A program made the translations under genes and the position numbers. Shown here piece after piece: positions 2,808 through 9,059 of a DNA stretch of 32,000 nt (its first letter is position 1; every line of letters begins with the position of its first letter). This DNA comes from Nitrosomonas europaea (GTDB taxonomy: Bacteria; Pseudomonadota; Gammaproteobacteria; Burkholderiales; Nitrosomonadaceae), in the NCBI RefSeq assembly GCF_900167395.1, contig NZ_FUWK01000016.1, positions 16,230-48,229 of the forward strand. Reading direction: 5' to 3'. The notes below the pieces were generated by a model. It had not been told where the DNA came from. It worked only from the letters and a program-made list of their open reading frames with translations, and made no database searches.

Positions 2808-5669
2808 TTACCGAGTAAATACTTCATCCCCCTCGGCACCGCGCCGGGGTTTCCATTGAGTGCTGTAGTATTCTCCGCGATCTCGCGCCCAGGGATCGAA
2901 CAGGTTGACCACACCCTGAAGCTCATCCGCCAGCTCGGGCAACGTTCTCAACAGGACTCGCTTCAGCGGAGAAACCGGTTGCCGGTGACCATTGTACGTC
3001 CCCTCTTCCATTATTTCCGGGCCCGGCCCATTGTGCATTACCCACTCCACTCCCAGAATGCTATAGAACTCCGGGCGAAAACTCGAAGTAAAAAACCGGT
3101 CGCTGAAGAGTCTGCGTGAAGCATTGAGAACGAACACGACGAACTGGGTTTCTGAAATGGCAAAACCGTGCGGCCGTTTGAATTCCGCCAGCCAGCCGAC
3201 GACCGTATCGACATCCTCGATATTGTCTACAAGACTGCCGTCGGGATGCCCCAGACAATCGTTAATGGGTGATTTGTCGTCATTCAGCTGGGCGTTTGTG
3301 ATCAGTCTGGATGCATCGCACCGGTGCTGTCCGTATACCTCACGTAATGTCCGCACGAGCTGCTCCTGTTCGCGACGAACAGACGAATCTCCGGGCACGC
3401 GCGGATCGATGAAATCATCGAAGCTGGTCAATTGCTTCAACCCGTACTGCCGACGAAACTCGTTATAGCGCGGAATGCCCCGCTCCCGGTCGCGAATGAG
3501 ATCGAGTGCAGCAATGTCGATTTGCCGGGTGGATGATTGCAGATGAGGGATCTTCAGGTTTTGCAAAAACCGCGGATGATTCTGGAGCGTCAACGCACCT
3601 GCCCGCTGACGACCCATGCTGAGCGCCCAGTTTGCCAGGCCTTTCTGCCGCATCGCCCCGGTGGCTTTACCGCGAAAGGTATCGATGACAGGTATTTTTT
3701 GCCGAATGATATTCGGATTGTTATGCCATTCACGGTATTCGATCAAATCCGGCAACAAAGGATGCAGTCGATATACCGTGACGAACTCTTCAGGAAAACT
3801 GAAAGGAGAACCAAAATGGTTGACTCCGCCATTGATATCTTCGTTGCGGGTGAGTGTCCAGATATCCTTTCTGTTGCGATCGACCAGGGAATAGAGCGGC
3901 GCGCCTTCATAGCGATGATTGCCTAACCCGAAAATACCTGCTCCACCAGCGAAAGCGGCATGAAGACTGTTGCTGATACCTTCGGTATCGTCCAGCTGGC
4001 GGATAATTTCTCTCAGTACCTCGGATACCGCCGCATGTTCGTGAAATAACCCATGCCAGTTGGCGTTCATCCCCCGATACAGCGGCTCGTTGTACAGCAG
4101 CTGCGTCGTCCACTCAAGGGTATGGATCTTGGCGATCTCGGCGGCAATCACCAGTCGGGCTACATTGAATAATTCGCCTGCCGTGACATCCCGGTAACGA
4201 ATGATCATCTCAGGGTGCGCCGGGTTCCTCAAGCCGCTGTCAGCATCAGGTGTTTTGGCTGCCTGCTTGCGGAATTCCTCAACAAAAGCATTGTGCTCTC
4301 TGGCAAAGACATTATGAAAAAAACTCAATCCAATGGACCAGTTGTCCGGAAAAGCGGCTGCTTCCTGACCTGACCATGCCGGATCGATCGGATCATCCAC
4401 TTCAAAGGTCGGCAAGTATCCGGATTCATCGCCTCTATCCACGCTTTCTCTTACATGAATCAGCGCTAATTTGGCAGCATCCTCGGGATCCCGTTTCACC
4501 CGCTGACTGGAGCGCTCGTCATAGCCATAAAGCTGTGAGGCATCCCACCAGGCTGTCACATGATTACGTGTCGTTTTCGGCGCGCGTGTGCGATAAAGGT
4601 GGCCGTCGTGCATGAACGATGCGGGCGGTGTGTCATCATCGATCGGTGCAACATGGATTCTGTCACCCGGCCGGCAGCCCAGCTGGCGGGCTTCCTTCGC
4701 TGCCAAAGGCTGTTCGATGTTGTCAATTCGCTGAGTTATACAACCCACCGTCATCCACGCTGACTGGTCAGATTCCTCTTCCACATGAGAAAACCAGTCA
4801 TGGGTCATGAACTGAATCCAGAAAGCTGCCAGCACATTCAGGGCCGGTGCTTTTTTGTAATCACATGCGAATTTCTCAAGATCGCCAGATAACTCGTCGT
4901 CGTTCCGGCATTTATCAGGCTGTGACTGCGTGCGCGTAAACAATTTCCGGCTGATGACCTGCGGATCGGGTTTCAGCAAACCCAATCGATCTCCATGACG
5001 ATTCCTGGCCATCTCATCGAGGCCCAGATCAGGAAAGGTCGTATCGAACTGGACATTGCGCGCAAAGATCTGATGAGTCGAGCCCATCAACGGATTGTAG
5101 ATATCGTTACAGATACCGGTAACAGTACGAAAACGAATCAATTCGCCACTGCAAACCTGATGTTCCTGATTATGCTCAACGTCCTTGTAACGAGGATGAG
5201 TTGGCGGTAACTGCATTTCCGGCCAGACTTGTAAAACAGGGCCTGCCCTGCCATCACGGCCTGTCACATAAGCCTGGTAAGTACCGCTATTGTCAAAGAG
5301 ATTGAATTTGATCAGCTCGATCCGCTGCAACTCCAGTTCATAAAGCGCACTGTTGATGCCACGTTCATTCGGACCGAAAAACGAGCTGGCCAATGGCGAA
5401 GAAGATAATGACAAGCTGTCACCTGTTCCCCAGAAATTTGGCCAATCCAGCCAGGGATTCCGGTTGAGCGCCACAGCATGATCTCCACCAAGACAATGCG
5501 CCCGTCTCCCGGTGACCTTACCGAGAAACCGCTGTTCTCTCGTCTTGGCAACGTGCTGAATGTCACCTTGCATGAGCACAGAGAGACAGGATATTTCAGG
5601 TTCCAAAGCATCACATCCGCTCAAAAGCAGTAATCCTGTCAGTACGATAACTATCGGAAAGTGGCTCAT
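2808..5669 (-). CDS. animal-haem-peroxidase-family protein, alpha-dioxygenase/linoleate-diol-synthase-like, predicted lipoprotein
   Basis: Signal peptide with lipobox: MSHFPIVIVLTGLLLLSG|C. Peroxidase blocks RFRTVTGICNDIYNPLMG, AAFWIQFMTHDWFSH (distal His) and VYRLHPLLPD (Tyr/proximal His). 953 aa uninterrupted ORF. Confidence 0.85.
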   Translation of the reverse strand: MSHFPIVIVLTGLLLLSGCDALEPEISCLSVLMQGDIQHVAKTREQRFLGKVTGRRAHCLGGDHAVALNRNPWLDWPNFWGTGDSLSLSSSPLASSFFGPNERGINSALYELELQRIELIKFNLFDNSGTYQAYVTGRDGRAGPVLQVWPEMQLPPTHPRYKDVEHNQEHQVCSGELIRFRTVTGICNDIYNPLMGSTHQIFARNVQFDTTFPDLGLDEMARNRHGDRLGLLKPDPQVISRKLFTRTQSQPDKCRNDDELSGDLEKFACDYKKAPALNVLAAFWIQFMTHDWFSHVEEESDQSAWMTVGCITQRIDNIEQPLAAKEARQLGCRPGDRIHVAPIDDDTPPASFMHDGHLYRTRAPKTTRNHVTAWWDASQLYGYDERSSQRVKRDPEDAAKLALIHVRESVDRGDESGYLPTFEVDDPIDPAWSGQEAAAFPDNWSIGLSFFHNVFAREHNAFVEEFRKQAAKTPDADSGLRNPAHPEMIIRYRDVTAGELFNVARLVIAAEIAKIHTLEWTTQLLYNEPLYRGMNANWHGLFHEHAAVSEVLREIIRQLDDTEGISNSLHAAFAGGAGIFGLGNHRYEGAPLYSLVDRNRKDIWTLTRNEDINGGVNHFGSPFSFPEEFVTVYRLHPLLPDLIEYREWHNNPNIIRQKIPVIDTFRGKATGAMRQKGLANWALSMGRQRAGALTLQNHPRFLQNLKIPHLQSSTRQIDIAALDLIRDRERGIPRYNEFRRQYGLKQLTSFDDFIDPRVPGDSSVRREQEQLVRTLREVYGQHRCDASRLITNAQLNDDKSPINDCLGHPDGSLVDNIEDVDTVVGWLAEFKRPHGFAISETQFVVFVLNASRRLFSDRFFTSSFRPEFYSILGVEWVMHNGPGPEIMEEGTYNGHRQPVSPLKRVLLRTLPELADELQGVVNLFDPWARDRGEYYSTQWKPRRGAEGDEVFTR

Positions 5670-5724
5670 CTGAAATCCAGAAGCTCTACCAGGCTATTAG
5701 AAATTCATACGAATCCCGCGAGAA

Positions 5725-7457: not shown

Positions 7458-9059
7458 TCAAGCAACAGCAGAGGTTCTGAAACTTGCAATAACCGTATCG
7501 CTGTCCCTGACATTACGTTTAACGATATCTGCAAGCAGACTGGTTTCTTCGATGATCGATTGCCCGACGGACGAGAAGGTCTTTTCATTATGTACGTAGC
7601 CCGATACCAGTGGATTGGTCAGAGCATGGGTAAATGCATCGTAACCCACCATCCGCACCATCAGGCGCCCCAGACTAAACCCTTCATCGTGATCTTCCGC
7701 AAAGATACCGACCTGCCACTCCAGGTCATCGATGCGATCGTTATACAGTTCCTTCAACTCCCGTTGCAGCGCCGGATCTGCTGTCAATTCCTCAAAACTT
7801 CTCAAACGCGGCATGCTGAATGCCTGGCGGTAATCATTGAATGAGCGCAGTTTGGCCTGACGCCCCATCTCTACGCTGCGTTCCATGACACTCCGGTTAT
7901 CCGCACCCACAGGCAATGGATCAAAAAAGAACTGAGGCGTGTTGTACAAACCGACACGGCCGGCTTTTTGCTGCGAGGCTGCTGATATCATGGTTCCAAT
8001 ACCATATTGGTGTGTGACCAGCGCGGTATTGTTGCGAAACTCATCGAGCGTGTATCGCTGATCACCGACAAAGTAGTATTCCGGCACCATCGAATGCCAC
8101 CTGTAGAGCAGATTGAATTCCAGAGAAATCCAGTTGGTGCGATACCAGCGCTGCCTTTCCGCCATCCCCGGTGTAGGATCGAGCGTAAAACCAAATTGTG
8201 TAAAATGCGAAACATAATCCTGCAACACCACTTTAATCAGCAGCACGATCATGATGTTTCTGGCTGTCTGGAACAGACGTTCATCATCCCAGGTGGGATG
8301 CGCTTCTTTGAGCACGTCACAGATCCGATTGTGTTCACGCAACATGATAGTATTCATGAGGGTATAGCCAATCGATGAATTACCATGTTCCAGCCCGGTG
8401 GCAAACATACGCTTCAACCGTTCTTCCGGGACATTGTCAAAAACAAATTCCAGAACAGCGCGGGGATGCAGATTCTCAAATTCCCTGTCAGCAAACACCC
8501 AATTATCTGCAGTCGTTTCTTCTACATTGAAAAGGTAAGGAGGAAAAATTTCTCCATCGATGACCTGATATTTCAGCTTGCCATCCTTTTTCAACCGCAG
8601 CAAATGCGTGATGTCTTCACGCAAGCCATAGATCTGGCACAGATCGATTTCGTGATTTGATGTATTTTTCCGGCGATCGAAAAAATCTGTCCGCAGAAAA
8701 CTATCGGTGAACCATTGAGCGAAAAAAGAAAACAGGATGCTGGTATCAACTGACGGGATTTCCCTGTTTTCTTTTCTGCGCCACAGATTGACAACACTTT
8801 TCAGATCCGGAAGATTCTGTTCTCCTTCCGCTTCCGGCAGATGTCGTCCGGTGAATGTCCGGTCTGTCAATGCCTGCCATGTGGTATAGGGAGCGGCCAT
8901 GGAGAATGGCCTGGGACGGGGGTTTGTGGCATAGGCCTGCCAATTGATAAAAGTATCGCTGATCCAGCGCCGCAACCACGTTATGCGCGAGGCGACTCGA
9001 CTGATCCATGGGAATCGGTTCACAAGCCGAAAAATGATCTGAAAAAAGAATTCATTCAT
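7458..9059 (-). CDS. cyclooxygenase (prostaglandin-H-synthase)-like haem dioxygenase
   Basis: Blocks [58 protein letters not shown] and [13 protein letters not shown] closely parallel vertebrate PGHS (from memory). SD GGGGA lies 6 nt before ATG 9059. Confidence 0.88.
   Translation of the reverse strand: [533 protein letters not shown]

What the first reader, a model, noticed from the sequence alone, without database searches (positions are those of the whole stretch)
2808..9059. Three different fatty-acid dioxygenase families encoded back-to-back: COX-like, lipoxygenase, alpha-DOX-like
Seen: three co-directional minus-strand genes separated by only 35 nt (7423-7457) and 55 nt (5670-5724). 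7458-9059 carries cyclooxygenase blocks ([30 protein letters not shown], LYRWH). 5725-7392 carries the exact lipoxygenase iron signature H-x4-H-x4-H-x17-H-x8-H. 2808-5669 carries RTVTGICNDIYNPLMG, WIQFMTHDW and VYRLHPLLPD, as in plant alpha-dioxygenases and fungal diol synthases. Established: all three families oxygenate fatty acids, via a Tyr-radical haem or non-haem iron, and each is uncommon in bacteria. Inference: an operon-like oxylipin pathway in which one oxygenase may feed another. Its products and role (signalling, envelope lipid remodelling, interaction with eukaryotes or community partners) are undefined.
Basis: partly seen in the sequence, partly recalled or inferred. Interest (0 to 1): 0.85.

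Follow-up and report, generated by a model that had tools for sequence, protein, structure and literature searches.

The report
Fatty-acid oxygenase gene cluster in Nitrosomonas

Summary
The window is Nitrosomonas europaea ATCC 19718. Three co-directional minus-strand genes encode three enzymes:
- a COX-like haem protein (7458-9059);
- an iron mini-lipoxygenase (5725-7392/7422);
- a 953-aa alpha-dioxygenase-like haem protein (2808-5669).

All quoted motifs are present and all catalytic residues are intact.

The COX-like protein is not a cyclooxygenase. Its distal His is replaced by Asp in an invariant FTDSF motif, the motif reported for the characterised cyanobacterial linoleate 10S-dioxygenase.

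The conserved core is the COX-like→LOX pair. It is adjacent in 18 of 18 related loci (Nitrosomonas, Nitrosospira, Nitrosovibrio, Methylomonas).

The third gene is a lineage-specific add-on. It is a predicted exported lipoprotein, with ~70% identical copies standing alone in Nitrospirota. However, N. marina has assembled the same three enzyme types with a non-orthologous, canonical alpha-DOX plus a patatin phospholipase and an aldehyde dehydrogenase. That supports a real functional link.

Elsewhere the partners swap. The COX-like enzyme pairs with a catalase-related protein or a fused P450. The sister LOX clade pairs with RoxA-like di-haem cytochromes.

Substrates, products and role are inferred only. 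I found no description of the cluster in the literature searched. Each enzyme kind is known; the combination is a new variant.

The parts
7458..9059 (-). 533-aa COX-like haem fatty-acid dioxygenase of the bacterial 10S-DOX type. Catalytic Tyr319 (8103-8105), proximal His322 (8094-8096), Gln115, and Asp119 (8703-8705) in place of the COX distal His207. No signal peptide; amphipathic N-terminus.
   Evidence: Pfam An_peroxidase 5.5e-42. COX-2 hit at 4e-70, aligned 12-518 to 64-546. [13 protein letters not shown], Y319 and H322 are invariant in 16 homologues. The same FTDSF motif is reported for Nostoc 10S-DOX (PMC13049297). 44% identity to the Scytonema orthologue that sits next to a catalase-related gene.
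5725..7392 (-). Iron mini-lipoxygenase with no PLAT domain. 555 aa from the likely start at 7392; the ORF extends to 7422 (565 aa). Iron ligands in ORF numbering: His264, His269, His445, His449 and the C-terminal Val565 carboxylate.
   Evidence: Pfam Lipoxygenase 8.7e-58. Full-length match to Cyanothece LOX 5MED, 4.6e-73. Motif positions. Ligand histidines invariant in A7. RBS AAAGGAG at 7405-7399. Homologues are 554-556 aa.
2808..5669 (-). 953-aa alpha-dioxygenase-like haem protein, predicted lipoprotein (lipobox LSGC, Cys19). Distal His290, His516 (= rice His311), Tyr633, proximal His636, and Arg852/Arg853 (= rice Arg558/559). About 170 extra N-terminal residues plus several insertions relative to plant alpha-DOX.
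   Evidence: Pfam An_peroxidase 2.9e-67. Rice and Arabidopsis alpha-DOX at 3e-54 and 3e-51, in six aligned blocks. All listed residues and nine further Cys are invariant in 13 homologues of 64-85% identity. Positions.
7393..7457 (-). Intergenic spacer between the COX-like gene and the LOX. 65 nt to the likely LOX start, 35 nt to the ORF start. Contains the LOX ribosome-binding site.
   Evidence: Sequence read. Only a weak hairpin (7435-7421) without a proper T-tract. The same gene order with short spacers recurs in 18 loci.
5670..5724 (-). 55-nt spacer between the LOX and the alpha-DOX-like gene. No terminator-like site.
   Evidence: The spacer is much longer, or interrupted by other genes, in other Nitrosomonas.
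9060..9229 (-). 170-nt region upstream of the COX-like gene: RBS AAGGGGA (9072-9066) and part of a roughly 60-nt block that recurs upstream of COX-like genes in other genera. This is the probable start of the transcription unit.
   Evidence: Sequence. Alignments A5 and A6 show the block GAAGAATATGnAAGTCATCAATG...GAAAAAGGGGT shared by Nitrosomonas, Nitrosospira and Nitrosovibrio although their upstream genes differ. No consensus sigma-70 site was found.
696..2720 (+). GMC-family FAD oxidoreductase, convergent with the alpha-DOX-like gene. Probable accessory, because it co-occurs with an alpha-DOX-type gene.
   Evidence: Pfam GMC_oxred_N and GMC_oxred_C. It is present in all five Nitrosomonas loci that carry an alpha-DOX-type gene (L002, L019, L021, L025, L090) and absent from the 13 COX-LOX loci without one.

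Best explanation
This is a fatty-acid oxygenation (oxylipin) locus built from a conserved two-gene core and a lineage-specific extension.

Core. A 10S-dioxygenase-type haem enzyme (7458-9059) abstracts an allylic hydrogen from a free unsaturated fatty acid through a Tyr319 radical and forms a hydroperoxide. An iron mini-lipoxygenase (5725-7392) is encoded directly downstream and probably co-transcribed. It either oxygenates polyunsaturated fatty acids in parallel or acts on the first enzyme's product. The order of the two is unresolved. Both proteins lack signal peptides, so they should work at the cytoplasmic face of the membrane.

Extension, found in N. europaea, N. communis and N. mobilis. 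An exported lipoprotein homologue of plant alpha-dioxygenase (2808-5669) keeps every residue needed to bind a fatty-acid carboxylate and abstract the C2 hydrogen. It should shorten fatty acids to Cn-1 aldehydes outside the cytoplasm. A GMC oxidoreductase next door may process the products.

Substrates and role. To my own knowledge, nitrifier lipids are essentially C16:0 and C16:1. The likely substrates are therefore monoenes released by a phospholipase, or exogenous unsaturated fatty acids. The most plausible role is to transform or detoxify free fatty acids rather than to carry out housekeeping lipid synthesis.

What is shown and what is inferred. Shown: family membership, intact active sites, gene order and its conservation. 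Inferred: substrates, products, order of action, co-transcription and physiological role.
For: Families and active sites.

10S-DOX link:
- The invariant FTDSF motif matches the F143tdsF reported for the characterised Nostoc enzyme.
- The protein is 44% identical to a Scytonema orthologue that has the same catalase-related neighbour as in Nostoc.

Pair conservation:
- COX-like->LOX is adjacent and co-directional in 18 of 18 loci with >=66% identity and downstream sequence. These cover Nitrosomonas, Nitrosospira, Nitrosovibrio, Methylomonas and a Pseudomonadota MAG, in differing genomic contexts.
- Identities of the two genes fall in parallel (95/90, 83/80, 76/76, 72/72, 66/67%).

Partner logic:
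- In other lineages the COX-like enzyme is followed by a catalase-related protein or fused to a P450.
- The sister LOX clade (38-44% identity) sits next to a RoxA-like di-haem cytochrome in 4 of 4 loci checked.

Trio link:
- N. marina has COX-like, LOX, patatin (7e-19), aldehyde dehydrogenase (7e-97) and a canonical alpha-DOX (6e-114 to rice alpha-DOX). That alpha-DOX is only 29% identical to the window protein. All five genes are co-directional.
- Another Nitrosomonas has a patatin gene upstream of the trio.

Short spacers with ribosome-binding sites and no convincing terminators.
Against: - No expression or activity data exist for any of the three genes, and none were found in the literature searched.
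- The alpha-DOX-like gene is absent from most COX-LOX loci. It is separated from the LOX by four unrelated genes in N. mobilis and by about 1 kb in another Nitrosomonas, and it is solitary in Nitrospirota. It can therefore function on its own.
- The predicted compartments differ: an exported lipoprotein versus two proteins with no signal peptide.
- The window holds no phospholipase or aldehyde dehydrogenase.
- A lipoxygenase needs a 1,4-pentadiene substrate, which the host is not known to make.
- The LOX region that holds the Ala/Gly stereo-determinant in canonical enzymes is divergent, so its chemistry may be atypical.
- How a b-type haem would be inserted into a Sec-exported lipoprotein is unexplained.
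Confidence: 0.6

Rival explanations
1. Only the COX-like/LOX pair is a functional unit. The alpha-DOX-like lipoprotein, with the GMC oxidoreductase, is an unrelated module that happens to have been inserted next to it in one Nitrosomonas lineage. It serves a different, periplasmic or surface function shared with Nitrospira.
For: - About 70% identical full-length homologues are abundant in Nitrospirota. There they have no LOX or COX-like neighbour, and in two contigs they lie directly after amoC copies.
- The gene is absent within +/-10 kb of the pair in Nitrosospira, Nitrosovibrio and Methylomonas.
- Unrelated genes (Sel1-caspase, autotransporter) separate it from the LOX in N. mobilis.
- An invariant lipobox Cys and nine conserved Cys point to a different compartment.
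Against: - It lies downstream of the pair in four Nitrosomonas lineages.
- N. marina places a non-orthologous, canonical alpha-DOX in the same cluster together with patatin and an aldehyde dehydrogenase. Independent recruitment of the same enzyme type is hard to explain by chance.
Confidence: 0.25
2. The two haem proteins are peroxidases or other redox enzymes rather than fatty-acid dioxygenases. They might act on H2O2, lipid hydroperoxides, Mn(II), or nitrogen oxides and hydroxylamine. The link to nitrifiers would then reflect nitrogen or oxidative-stress chemistry.
For: - Both belong to the animal haem peroxidase family, PF03098.
- Bacterial members of this superfamily oxidise Mn or produce superoxide, as cited in the bioRxiv preprint read.
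- The long alpha-DOX-like family is concentrated in nitrifiers and sits beside amoC in two contigs.
- The COX-like enzyme lacks the distal His used by COX for its peroxidase cycle, so its chemistry differs from COX.
Against: - The residues that define fatty-acid dioxygenase chemistry are conserved. In the COX-like protein these are the Tyr-x-x-His radical site and the 10S-DOX FTDSF motif. In the 953-aa protein they are the alpha-DOX carboxylate-binding Arg pair and the His311 equivalent.
- The neighbours are lipid enzymes: LOX, and in related species patatin and aldehyde dehydrogenase.
Confidence: 0.1
3. The genes are evolutionary relics acquired by horizontal transfer and no longer serve a function in N. 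europaea.
For: - The host is not known to make LOX substrates (my own knowledge).
- No publication on their function was found.
Against: - The reading frames are intact with every catalytic residue conserved.
- The pair is retained at 66-95% identity across several genera and many metagenomes.
- GC content matches the surrounding genome.
Confidence: 0.03

Closest known systems
Nostoc punctiforme linoleate 10S-dioxygenase with its catalase-related hydroperoxide lyase (Brash et al. 2014, as summarised in PMC13049297)
   Same: - Bacterial COX-like haem dioxygenase with the catalytic Tyr, the proximal His and the FTDSF motif in place of COX FTHQF.
- No EGF domain.
- The gene is followed by a second enzyme of oxylipin metabolism.
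- The window protein is 44% identical to a Scytonema orthologue with the same catalase-related neighbour.
   Different: - The downstream partner here is a lipoxygenase, not a catalase-related lyase.
- The host is a chemolithoautotroph not known to make linoleate.
- Regiospecificity is untested.
Cyanothece sp. PCC 8801 mini-lipoxygenase CspLOX2 (PDB 5MED)
   Same: - Full-length co-linear match (4.6e-73).
- No PLAT domain, with a helical N-terminal extension.
- Same His-His-His iron core.
   Different: - The fourth ligand position is His449 rather than Asn, and the C-terminal residue is Val rather than Ile.
- The segment holding the Ala/Gly stereo-determinant is replaced by the clade-specific VNHQHTFL(R/K)DRKGRPG.
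- It is always paired with a haem dioxygenase gene.
Plant alpha-dioxygenases (rice 4KVJ, Arabidopsis 4HHR) and the alpha-oxidation route via aldehyde dehydrogenase
   Same: - Distal His, His311, Tyr379, His382 and Arg558/559 equivalents are all conserved.
- In N. marina a canonical alpha-DOX in the same cluster lies next to an aldehyde dehydrogenase.
   Different: - 953 aa against about 620-640 aa.
- The alignment breaks into six blocks, with about 170 extra N-terminal residues and several insertions.
- Invariant lipoprotein signal and many conserved cysteines.
- The family is concentrated in Nitrosomonas and Nitrospirota.
Two-enzyme oxylipin modules: fungal DOX-P450 fusions (linoleate diol synthases), coral and cyanobacterial catalase-related haem-LOX fusions, and the P. 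aeruginosa PA2077/PA2078 oleate diol synthase operon (PMC4496055)
   Same: - One enzyme makes a fatty-acid hydroperoxide and an adjacent or fused enzyme transforms it.
- Bacterial COX-like-P450 fusions and LOX-RoxA-like pairs were found here in related loci.
   Different: - Here both partners look like primary dioxygenases (a Tyr-radical haem enzyme plus a non-haem iron enzyme).
- I did not find the combination of a peroxidase-cyclooxygenase-type dioxygenase with a LOX described in the literature searched.

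Membership tests
Peroxidase-cyclooxygenase superfamily (Pfam PF03098), gene 7458-9059 | Significant match to the family profile above the curated cut-off | tested here: met
   144.5 bits against a cut-off of 25, E 5.5e-42
Cyclooxygenase proper (prostaglandin H synthase), gene 7458-9059 | Catalytic Tyr385 and proximal His388 | tested here: met
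   LYRWH: Y319 and H322 align to COX-2 YHWH and are invariant in 16 homologues
Cyclooxygenase proper (prostaglandin H synthase), gene 7458-9059 | Distal His207 of the peroxidase site | tested here: not met
   FAQWFTDSF aligns to FAQHFTHQF. Asp119 replaces the His and is invariant in the bacterial clade
Cyclooxygenase proper (prostaglandin H synthase), gene 7458-9059 | N-terminal EGF-like domain | tested here: not met
   The alignment starts at query residue 12 against COX-2 chain residue 64. There is no counterpart of the preceding domain
Bacterial linoleate 10S-dioxygenase type, gene 7458-9059 | FTDSF motif in the distal helix, with a retained Tyr radical site | tested here: met
   FTDSF at aa 117-121. 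The motif is reported as F143tdsF for the Nostoc enzyme in PMC13049297
Bacterial linoleate 10S-dioxygenase type, gene 7458-9059 | Orthology to the characterised enzyme, and 10S-hydroperoxide formation from oleate or linoleate | not testable with these tools
   Only 44% identity to a cyanobacterial orthologue identified by its catalase-related neighbour. The Nostoc sequence itself was not available and activity needs experiment
Lipoxygenase (Pfam PF00305), gene 5725-7392 | Profile match and the five-histidine signature H-x4-H-x4-H-x17-H-x8-H | tested here: met
   196.8 bits, E 8.7e-58. Signature at aa 259-296
Lipoxygenase (Pfam PF00305), gene 5725-7392 | Iron ligands: two His in the signature, His plus His/Asn in H-x3-(H/N), and a C-terminal aliphatic carboxylate | tested here: met
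   H264, H269, H445, H449 and C-terminal Val565. The histidines are invariant in A7
Lipoxygenase (Pfam PF00305), gene 5725-7392 | Canonical Ala/Gly stereo-determinant in the N-x-x-(A/G)-R-x-x-L-I context | tested here: inconclusive
   The segment is replaced by VNHQHTFLRDRKGRPG. Two aligners place Leu or His at the position. My recall of the motif context is from memory
Fatty-acid alpha-dioxygenase, gene 2808-5669 | Distal His, catalytic Tyr and proximal His (rice His157, Tyr379, His382) | tested here: met
   WIQFMTHDW (H290) and VYRLHP (Y633, H636) align to the rice motifs and are invariant
Fatty-acid alpha-dioxygenase, gene 2808-5669 | Carboxylate-binding residues (rice His311, Arg558, Arg559). 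The assignment of the rice residue numbers is from my memory of the structure papers | tested here: met
   KIHTLEW (H516) and ASRRLF (R852, R853) align to rice KVHTIDW and ASRRLE and are invariant
Fatty-acid alpha-dioxygenase, gene 2808-5669 | Co-linear full-length similarity to characterised alpha-DOX | tested here: not met
   The match is split into six blocks covering a minority of the 953 aa. By contrast the N. marina neighbour aligns over its full length at 6e-114. The structure model failed, pLDDT 32
Bacterial lipoprotein, gene 2808-5669 | Hydrophobic leader ending in a lipobox L-(A/S)-(G/A)-C | tested here: met
   LSGC at aa 16-19. Cys19 is invariant in 13 homologues, preceded by a hydrophobic stretch. 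No dedicated predictor was available
Operon (single transcription unit) | Same strand, short spacers, no terminator between genes, and order conserved across species | tested here: met
   This holds for COX-like->LOX. For LOX->alpha-DOX-like it holds only in N. europaea
Operon (single transcription unit) | A transcript spanning the junctions | not testable with these tools
   No expression data were available, and a locus-tag search of the literature found nothing relevant

The most novel reading that the evidence does not exclude
The haem-dioxygenase/lipoxygenase module, with the exported alpha-dioxygenase where present, is a defence system. It would let bacteria that depend on membrane copper monooxygenases (AMO in ammonia oxidisers, pMMO in Methylomonas) destroy free unsaturated fatty acids. 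Linoleic and linolenic acids released by plant roots are reported to inhibit AMO and HAO. The module would then be a resistance determinant against biological nitrification inhibitors.

A mechanistic corollary follows. In hosts without polyunsaturated lipids, the LOX may act mainly on hydroperoxides made by its haem partner, much as the mammalian 12R-LOX/eLOX3 pair works.
Probability: 0.17. Interest if true: 0.85.

Novelty: new variant of a known kind. Interest (0 to 1): 0.58.

Why it matters
Ammonia oxidisers control nitrogen loss from fertilised soils and nitrogen removal from wastewater.

- Free linoleic and linolenic acids from Brachiaria roots are reported nitrification inhibitors that block AMO and HAO of Nitrosomonas (PMC9011059; bioRxiv 10.64898/2026.04.12.685468).
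- A conserved enzyme set able to oxidise exactly such molecules gives a concrete, testable candidate for how nitrifiers tolerate or transform them, or alternatively for an unknown lipid signal.
- For oxylipin biochemistry, the data suggest that bacterial mini-lipoxygenases come as modules with an interchangeable haem partner: a COX-like dioxygenase in nitrifiers and Methylomonas, and a RoxA-like di-haem cytochrome in the Beggiatoa clade.
- COX-like dioxygenases in turn swap their partner between a catalase-related protein, a fused P450 and a LOX.
- The data also reveal a large family of exported alpha-dioxygenase-like lipoproteins shared by Nitrosomonas and Nitrospirota.

Tried and rejected
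1. AlphaFold2 model of the 953-aa protein from a 13-sequence alignment: mean pLDDT 32, unusable, so no fold search was run.
2. Literature.
   - Searches for N. europaea with lipoxygenase or cyclooxygenase, for presumed locus tags NE1238-NE1241, and for bacterial alpha-DOX/LOX clusters gave no description of the cluster.
   - One review merely lists N. europaea among bacteria with a LOX.
   - The N. europaea genome paper and the Nostoc 10S-DOX paper were not held.
3. NCBIfam gave no named family for any of the three proteins.
4. The promoter and terminator consensus scan was not informative. It found 9 promoter-like sites against 12.4 expected, and no convincing terminator between the genes.
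5. I tested whether the neighbouring 889-aa di-haem lipoprotein is a RoxA-like fatty-acid oxygenase. There was only a sub-threshold Pfam hit (E 0.026), BLASTP E 6e-4 and no PDB hit with a profile, so this stays inconclusive.
6. A search of the window for patatin or aldehyde dehydrogenase homologues found none.
7. I considered and rejected 'true cyclooxygenase / prostaglandin synthesis', because the distal His and the EGF domain are absent.
8. I considered the tyrosinase upstream as part of the unit and rejected it. It neighbours the pair only in N. europaea-type genomes.

Full report
**Identity of the window.** The LOX protein is encoded identically in AL954747.1, the chromosome of Nitrosomonas europaea ATCC 19718, at about 1.34-1.37 Mb. 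GC content is about 50% across the region with no break at the three genes.

**Check of the observation.**
- Three ORFs lie on the minus strand: 7458-9059 (533 aa), 5725-7422 (565 aa) and 2808-5669 (953 aa).
- Pfam assigns An_peroxidase (5.5e-42), Lipoxygenase (8.7e-58) and An_peroxidase (2.9e-67) respectively.
- The best solved structures are COX-2 (4e-70, aligned almost end to end), the Cyanothece mini-LOX 5MED (4.6e-73, full length) and rice and Arabidopsis alpha-dioxygenases (3e-54 and 3e-51).
The ORF starts at 7422, but the ATG at 7392 has a strong AAAGGAG ribosome-binding site 6 nt upstream, and homologues are 554-556 aa. The real spacer is therefore probably 65 nt rather than 35 nt.

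**Gene 1 is COX-like but not a cyclooxygenase.**
- It keeps the radical Tyr (Y319) and proximal His (H322) in LYRWH, and Gln115.
- The COX distal His207 is replaced by Asp119. The block [13 protein letters not shown] is invariant in 16 homologues from Proteobacteria and Actinobacteria.
- A 2026 review reports that the characterised Nostoc punctiforme linoleate 10S-dioxygenase has F143tdsF where COX has F205thqF (PMC13049297).
- Cyanobacterial relatives in Scytonema are followed by a 355-aa catalase-related gene, the arrangement described for the Nostoc 10S-DOX and its lyase. They are 44% identical to the window protein.
- There is no counterpart of the COX EGF domain and no signal peptide.
- I therefore file it as a bacterial 10S-DOX-type fatty-acid dioxygenase whose regiospecificity is untested.

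**Gene 2 is an intact mini-lipoxygenase.**
- Iron ligands are His264, His269, His445, His449 and the C-terminal Val565. It has no PLAT domain.
- One oddity: the segment that carries the Ala/Gly stereo-determinant in canonical LOXs is replaced by VNHQHTFL(R/K)DRKGRPG, which is conserved in this clade. I could not interpret this.

**Gene 3 is alpha-dioxygenase-like but atypical.**
- It conserves the distal His (H290), the His311 equivalent (H516), Tyr633, His636 and the Arg pair R852/R853. These align with the rice residues that position the fatty-acid carboxylate, and all are invariant in 13 homologues. The rice residue numbering is from my memory of the structure papers.
- The similarity is broken into six blocks. 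There are about 170 extra N-terminal residues, several insertions, an invariant lipobox cysteine (LSGC, Cys19) and nine further invariant cysteines. This indicates an exported lipoprotein.
- Full-length homologues of about 70% identity are abundant in Nitrospirota metagenome bins. There the gene stands alone, and in two contigs it directly follows amoC copies.
- A structure model failed, with pLDDT 32.

**Comparative genomics of the arrangement.** I scanned species-representative genomes with an alignment of COX-like proteins and obtained 80 loci. I searched them with the window proteins and clustered their ORFs.
- In all 18 loci with >=66% identity and downstream sequence, the COX-like gene is immediately followed, on the same strand, by the LOX. 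These loci cover several Nitrosomonas species, Nitrosospira multiformis strains, Nitrosovibrio, a Methylomonas MAG and a Pseudomonadota MAG. A Methylomonas isolate shows the same order.
- The flanking genes differ between lineages, and the identities of the two genes decline in parallel. They are inherited as a unit.
- None of the more distant COX-like loci (<=64% identity) has a LOX. Scytonema has the catalase-related gene, and Marivivens and a gammaproteobacterial MAG carry COX-like-P450 fusions.
- Seen from the LOX side, the >=67% clade is exactly the paired clade. The next clade (38-44% identity, Beggiatoa and relatives) sits next to a RoxA-like di-haem cytochrome c in 4 of 4 loci checked, overlapping it by 10 nt in Beggiatoa. 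This is the protein family to which P. aeruginosa oleate 10S-dioxygenase and 7,10-diol synthase are assigned (PMC4496055).
- So a mini-LOX travelling with a haem oxygenase partner is a recurring design, and the partner family is interchangeable.

**The third gene's linkage.**
- An orthologue of the 953-aa protein lies downstream of the pair only in N. europaea, N. communis, a further Nitrosomonas (about 1 kb away) and N. mobilis. In N. mobilis it lies behind four unrelated genes: a Sel1-caspase, two of unknown function and an autotransporter.
- This argues for an independent module. However, N. marina Nm22 has COX-like, LOX, a patatin-like phospholipase (7e-19), an aldehyde dehydrogenase (7e-97) and a TPR-fused canonical alpha-dioxygenase. 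That alpha-DOX matches rice alpha-DOX at 6e-114 over its full length but is only 29% identical to the window protein. All five genes are co-directional.
- Independent recruitment of a non-orthologous alpha-DOX, together with a lipase and the aldehyde dehydrogenase expected for alpha-oxidation, is the strongest evidence that the three enzyme types belong together functionally.
- A patatin gene also lies upstream of the trio in another Nitrosomonas and in N. communis. None is in the window.
- The convergent GMC oxidoreductase (696-2720) is present in all five Nitrosomonas loci that have an alpha-DOX-type gene and in none of the 13 that lack one.

**Transcription signals.**
- Spacers are short and have ribosome-binding sites. 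No convincing terminator lies between the genes, and consensus promoter hits are not enriched.
- A block of about 60 nt directly upstream of the COX-like start codon is recognisable in Nitrosomonas, Nitrosospira and Nitrosovibrio even though the upstream genes differ. This fits a unit that starts at the COX-like gene.
- The tyrosinase upstream accompanies the pair only in N. europaea-type genomes.

**Mechanism.**
- Shown: the three proteins have the residues required for Tyr-radical haem dioxygenation, for non-haem iron lipoxygenation and for alpha-dioxygenation.
- Inferred: the COX-like enzyme makes allylic hydroperoxides from Δ9-unsaturated fatty acids. The LOX oxygenates dienes or transforms the partner's hydroperoxide. 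The lipoprotein shortens fatty acids outside the cytoplasm.
- To my own knowledge nitrifier lipids lack polyunsaturated acyl chains, so LOX substrates must be exogenous or be hydroperoxides.
- Linoleic and linolenic acids are reported inhibitors of AMO and HAO in Nitrosomonas. Detoxification is therefore an attractive but untested role.

**Comparison with what is known, and novelty.**
- Each enzyme is a new member of a known kind.
- The pairing of a peroxidase-cyclooxygenase-type dioxygenase with a LOX, the trio, and the exported long alpha-DOX-like family were not described in the literature I could search. Subscription journals were largely out of reach, so an earlier mention cannot be excluded.
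- I rate the finding as a new variant of a known kind, of moderate to high interest. No function has yet been demonstrated.

Noticed in passing
window 9230-10747 (-): A tyrosinase (MelC2-like, Pfam 2.3e-42) fused to two C-terminal PPC (pre-peptidase) domains lies directly upstream of the COX-like gene. A fourth oxygen-activating enzyme in a row, it neighbours the pair only in N. europaea-type genomes.
   Followed up: partly
window 11578-12378 (-) and 12518-13225 (-): Two predicted secreted proteins share a 39-residue cysteine-rich C-terminal module, CGGIAG..CP.G..CVDDP.D.CDP..GGADCAGIC (72% identity, E 1e-17). The second also has a Kazal protease-inhibitor domain. No family match for the module.
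   Followed up: partly
window 30-671 (+), C-terminal part; full gene in L002:16752-19421: An 889-aa predicted lipoprotein with two CxxCH haem-binding motifs lies upstream of the GMC oxidoreductase and is conserved next to the locus in Nitrosomonadaceae. It has only a sub-threshold resemblance to RoxA-like di-haem cytochromes (Pfam E 0.026; BLASTP 6e-4 to the Beggiatoa protein), so a fourth oxygenase type is possible but unproven.
   Followed up: partly
L087:2865-6939 and L088:745-4819: In two groundwater/metagenome contigs, the roughly 70% identical homologue of the 953-aa haem lipoprotein directly follows one or two amoC genes. The closest named homologues are from Nitrospirota. The taxon of these contigs was not established.
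   Followed up: partly
L026:9971-12841 (Marivivens niveibacter) and L027:6721-9663 (gammaproteobacterial MAG): Bacterial COX-like dioxygenase fused to a C-terminal cytochrome P450 (956 and 980 aa). This is the domain architecture of fungal linoleate diol synthases and allene oxide synthases.
   Followed up: partly
L092:6115-9656, L093:6112-9662, L095:6001-9929, L096:6001-9833: Mini-lipoxygenases of the Beggiatoa clade are adjacent to, and co-directional with, a RoxA-like di-haem cytochrome c (PF21419), either upstream (10-nt overlap) or downstream. I did not find this LOX/di-haem gene pair described.
   Followed up: partly
window 6450-6540 (-), LOX residues about 297-325: The LOX segment that normally carries the Ala/Gly oxygenation stereo-determinant is replaced by a clade-conserved basic stretch, VNHQHTFLRDRKGRPGRYG. 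The consequence for catalysis is unknown.
   Followed up: no
window 29772-31534 (-): An RHS-repeat C-terminal fragment with a PT-TG pre-toxin and a ParB_N-like domain is followed by a DUF416 protein. This is a polymorphic toxin/immunity-like pair in a stretch where GC drops to 0.40.
   Followed up: no
window 16154-28592 (-): A 1713-aa ChpA/FimL-type hybrid histidine kinase, a PilJ-like MCP, four pseudopilin-like genes, and GspF- and GspE-type genes form a long co-directional pilus/secretion and chemosensory block unrelated to the finding.
   Followed up: no
L097:3962-13566 (Planctomycetota MAG): A PLAT-lipoxygenase and a mini-lipoxygenase in tandem, with a patatin phospholipase and a cytochrome P450 nearby. 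This is another bacterial multi-oxygenase lipid cluster.
   Followed up: no
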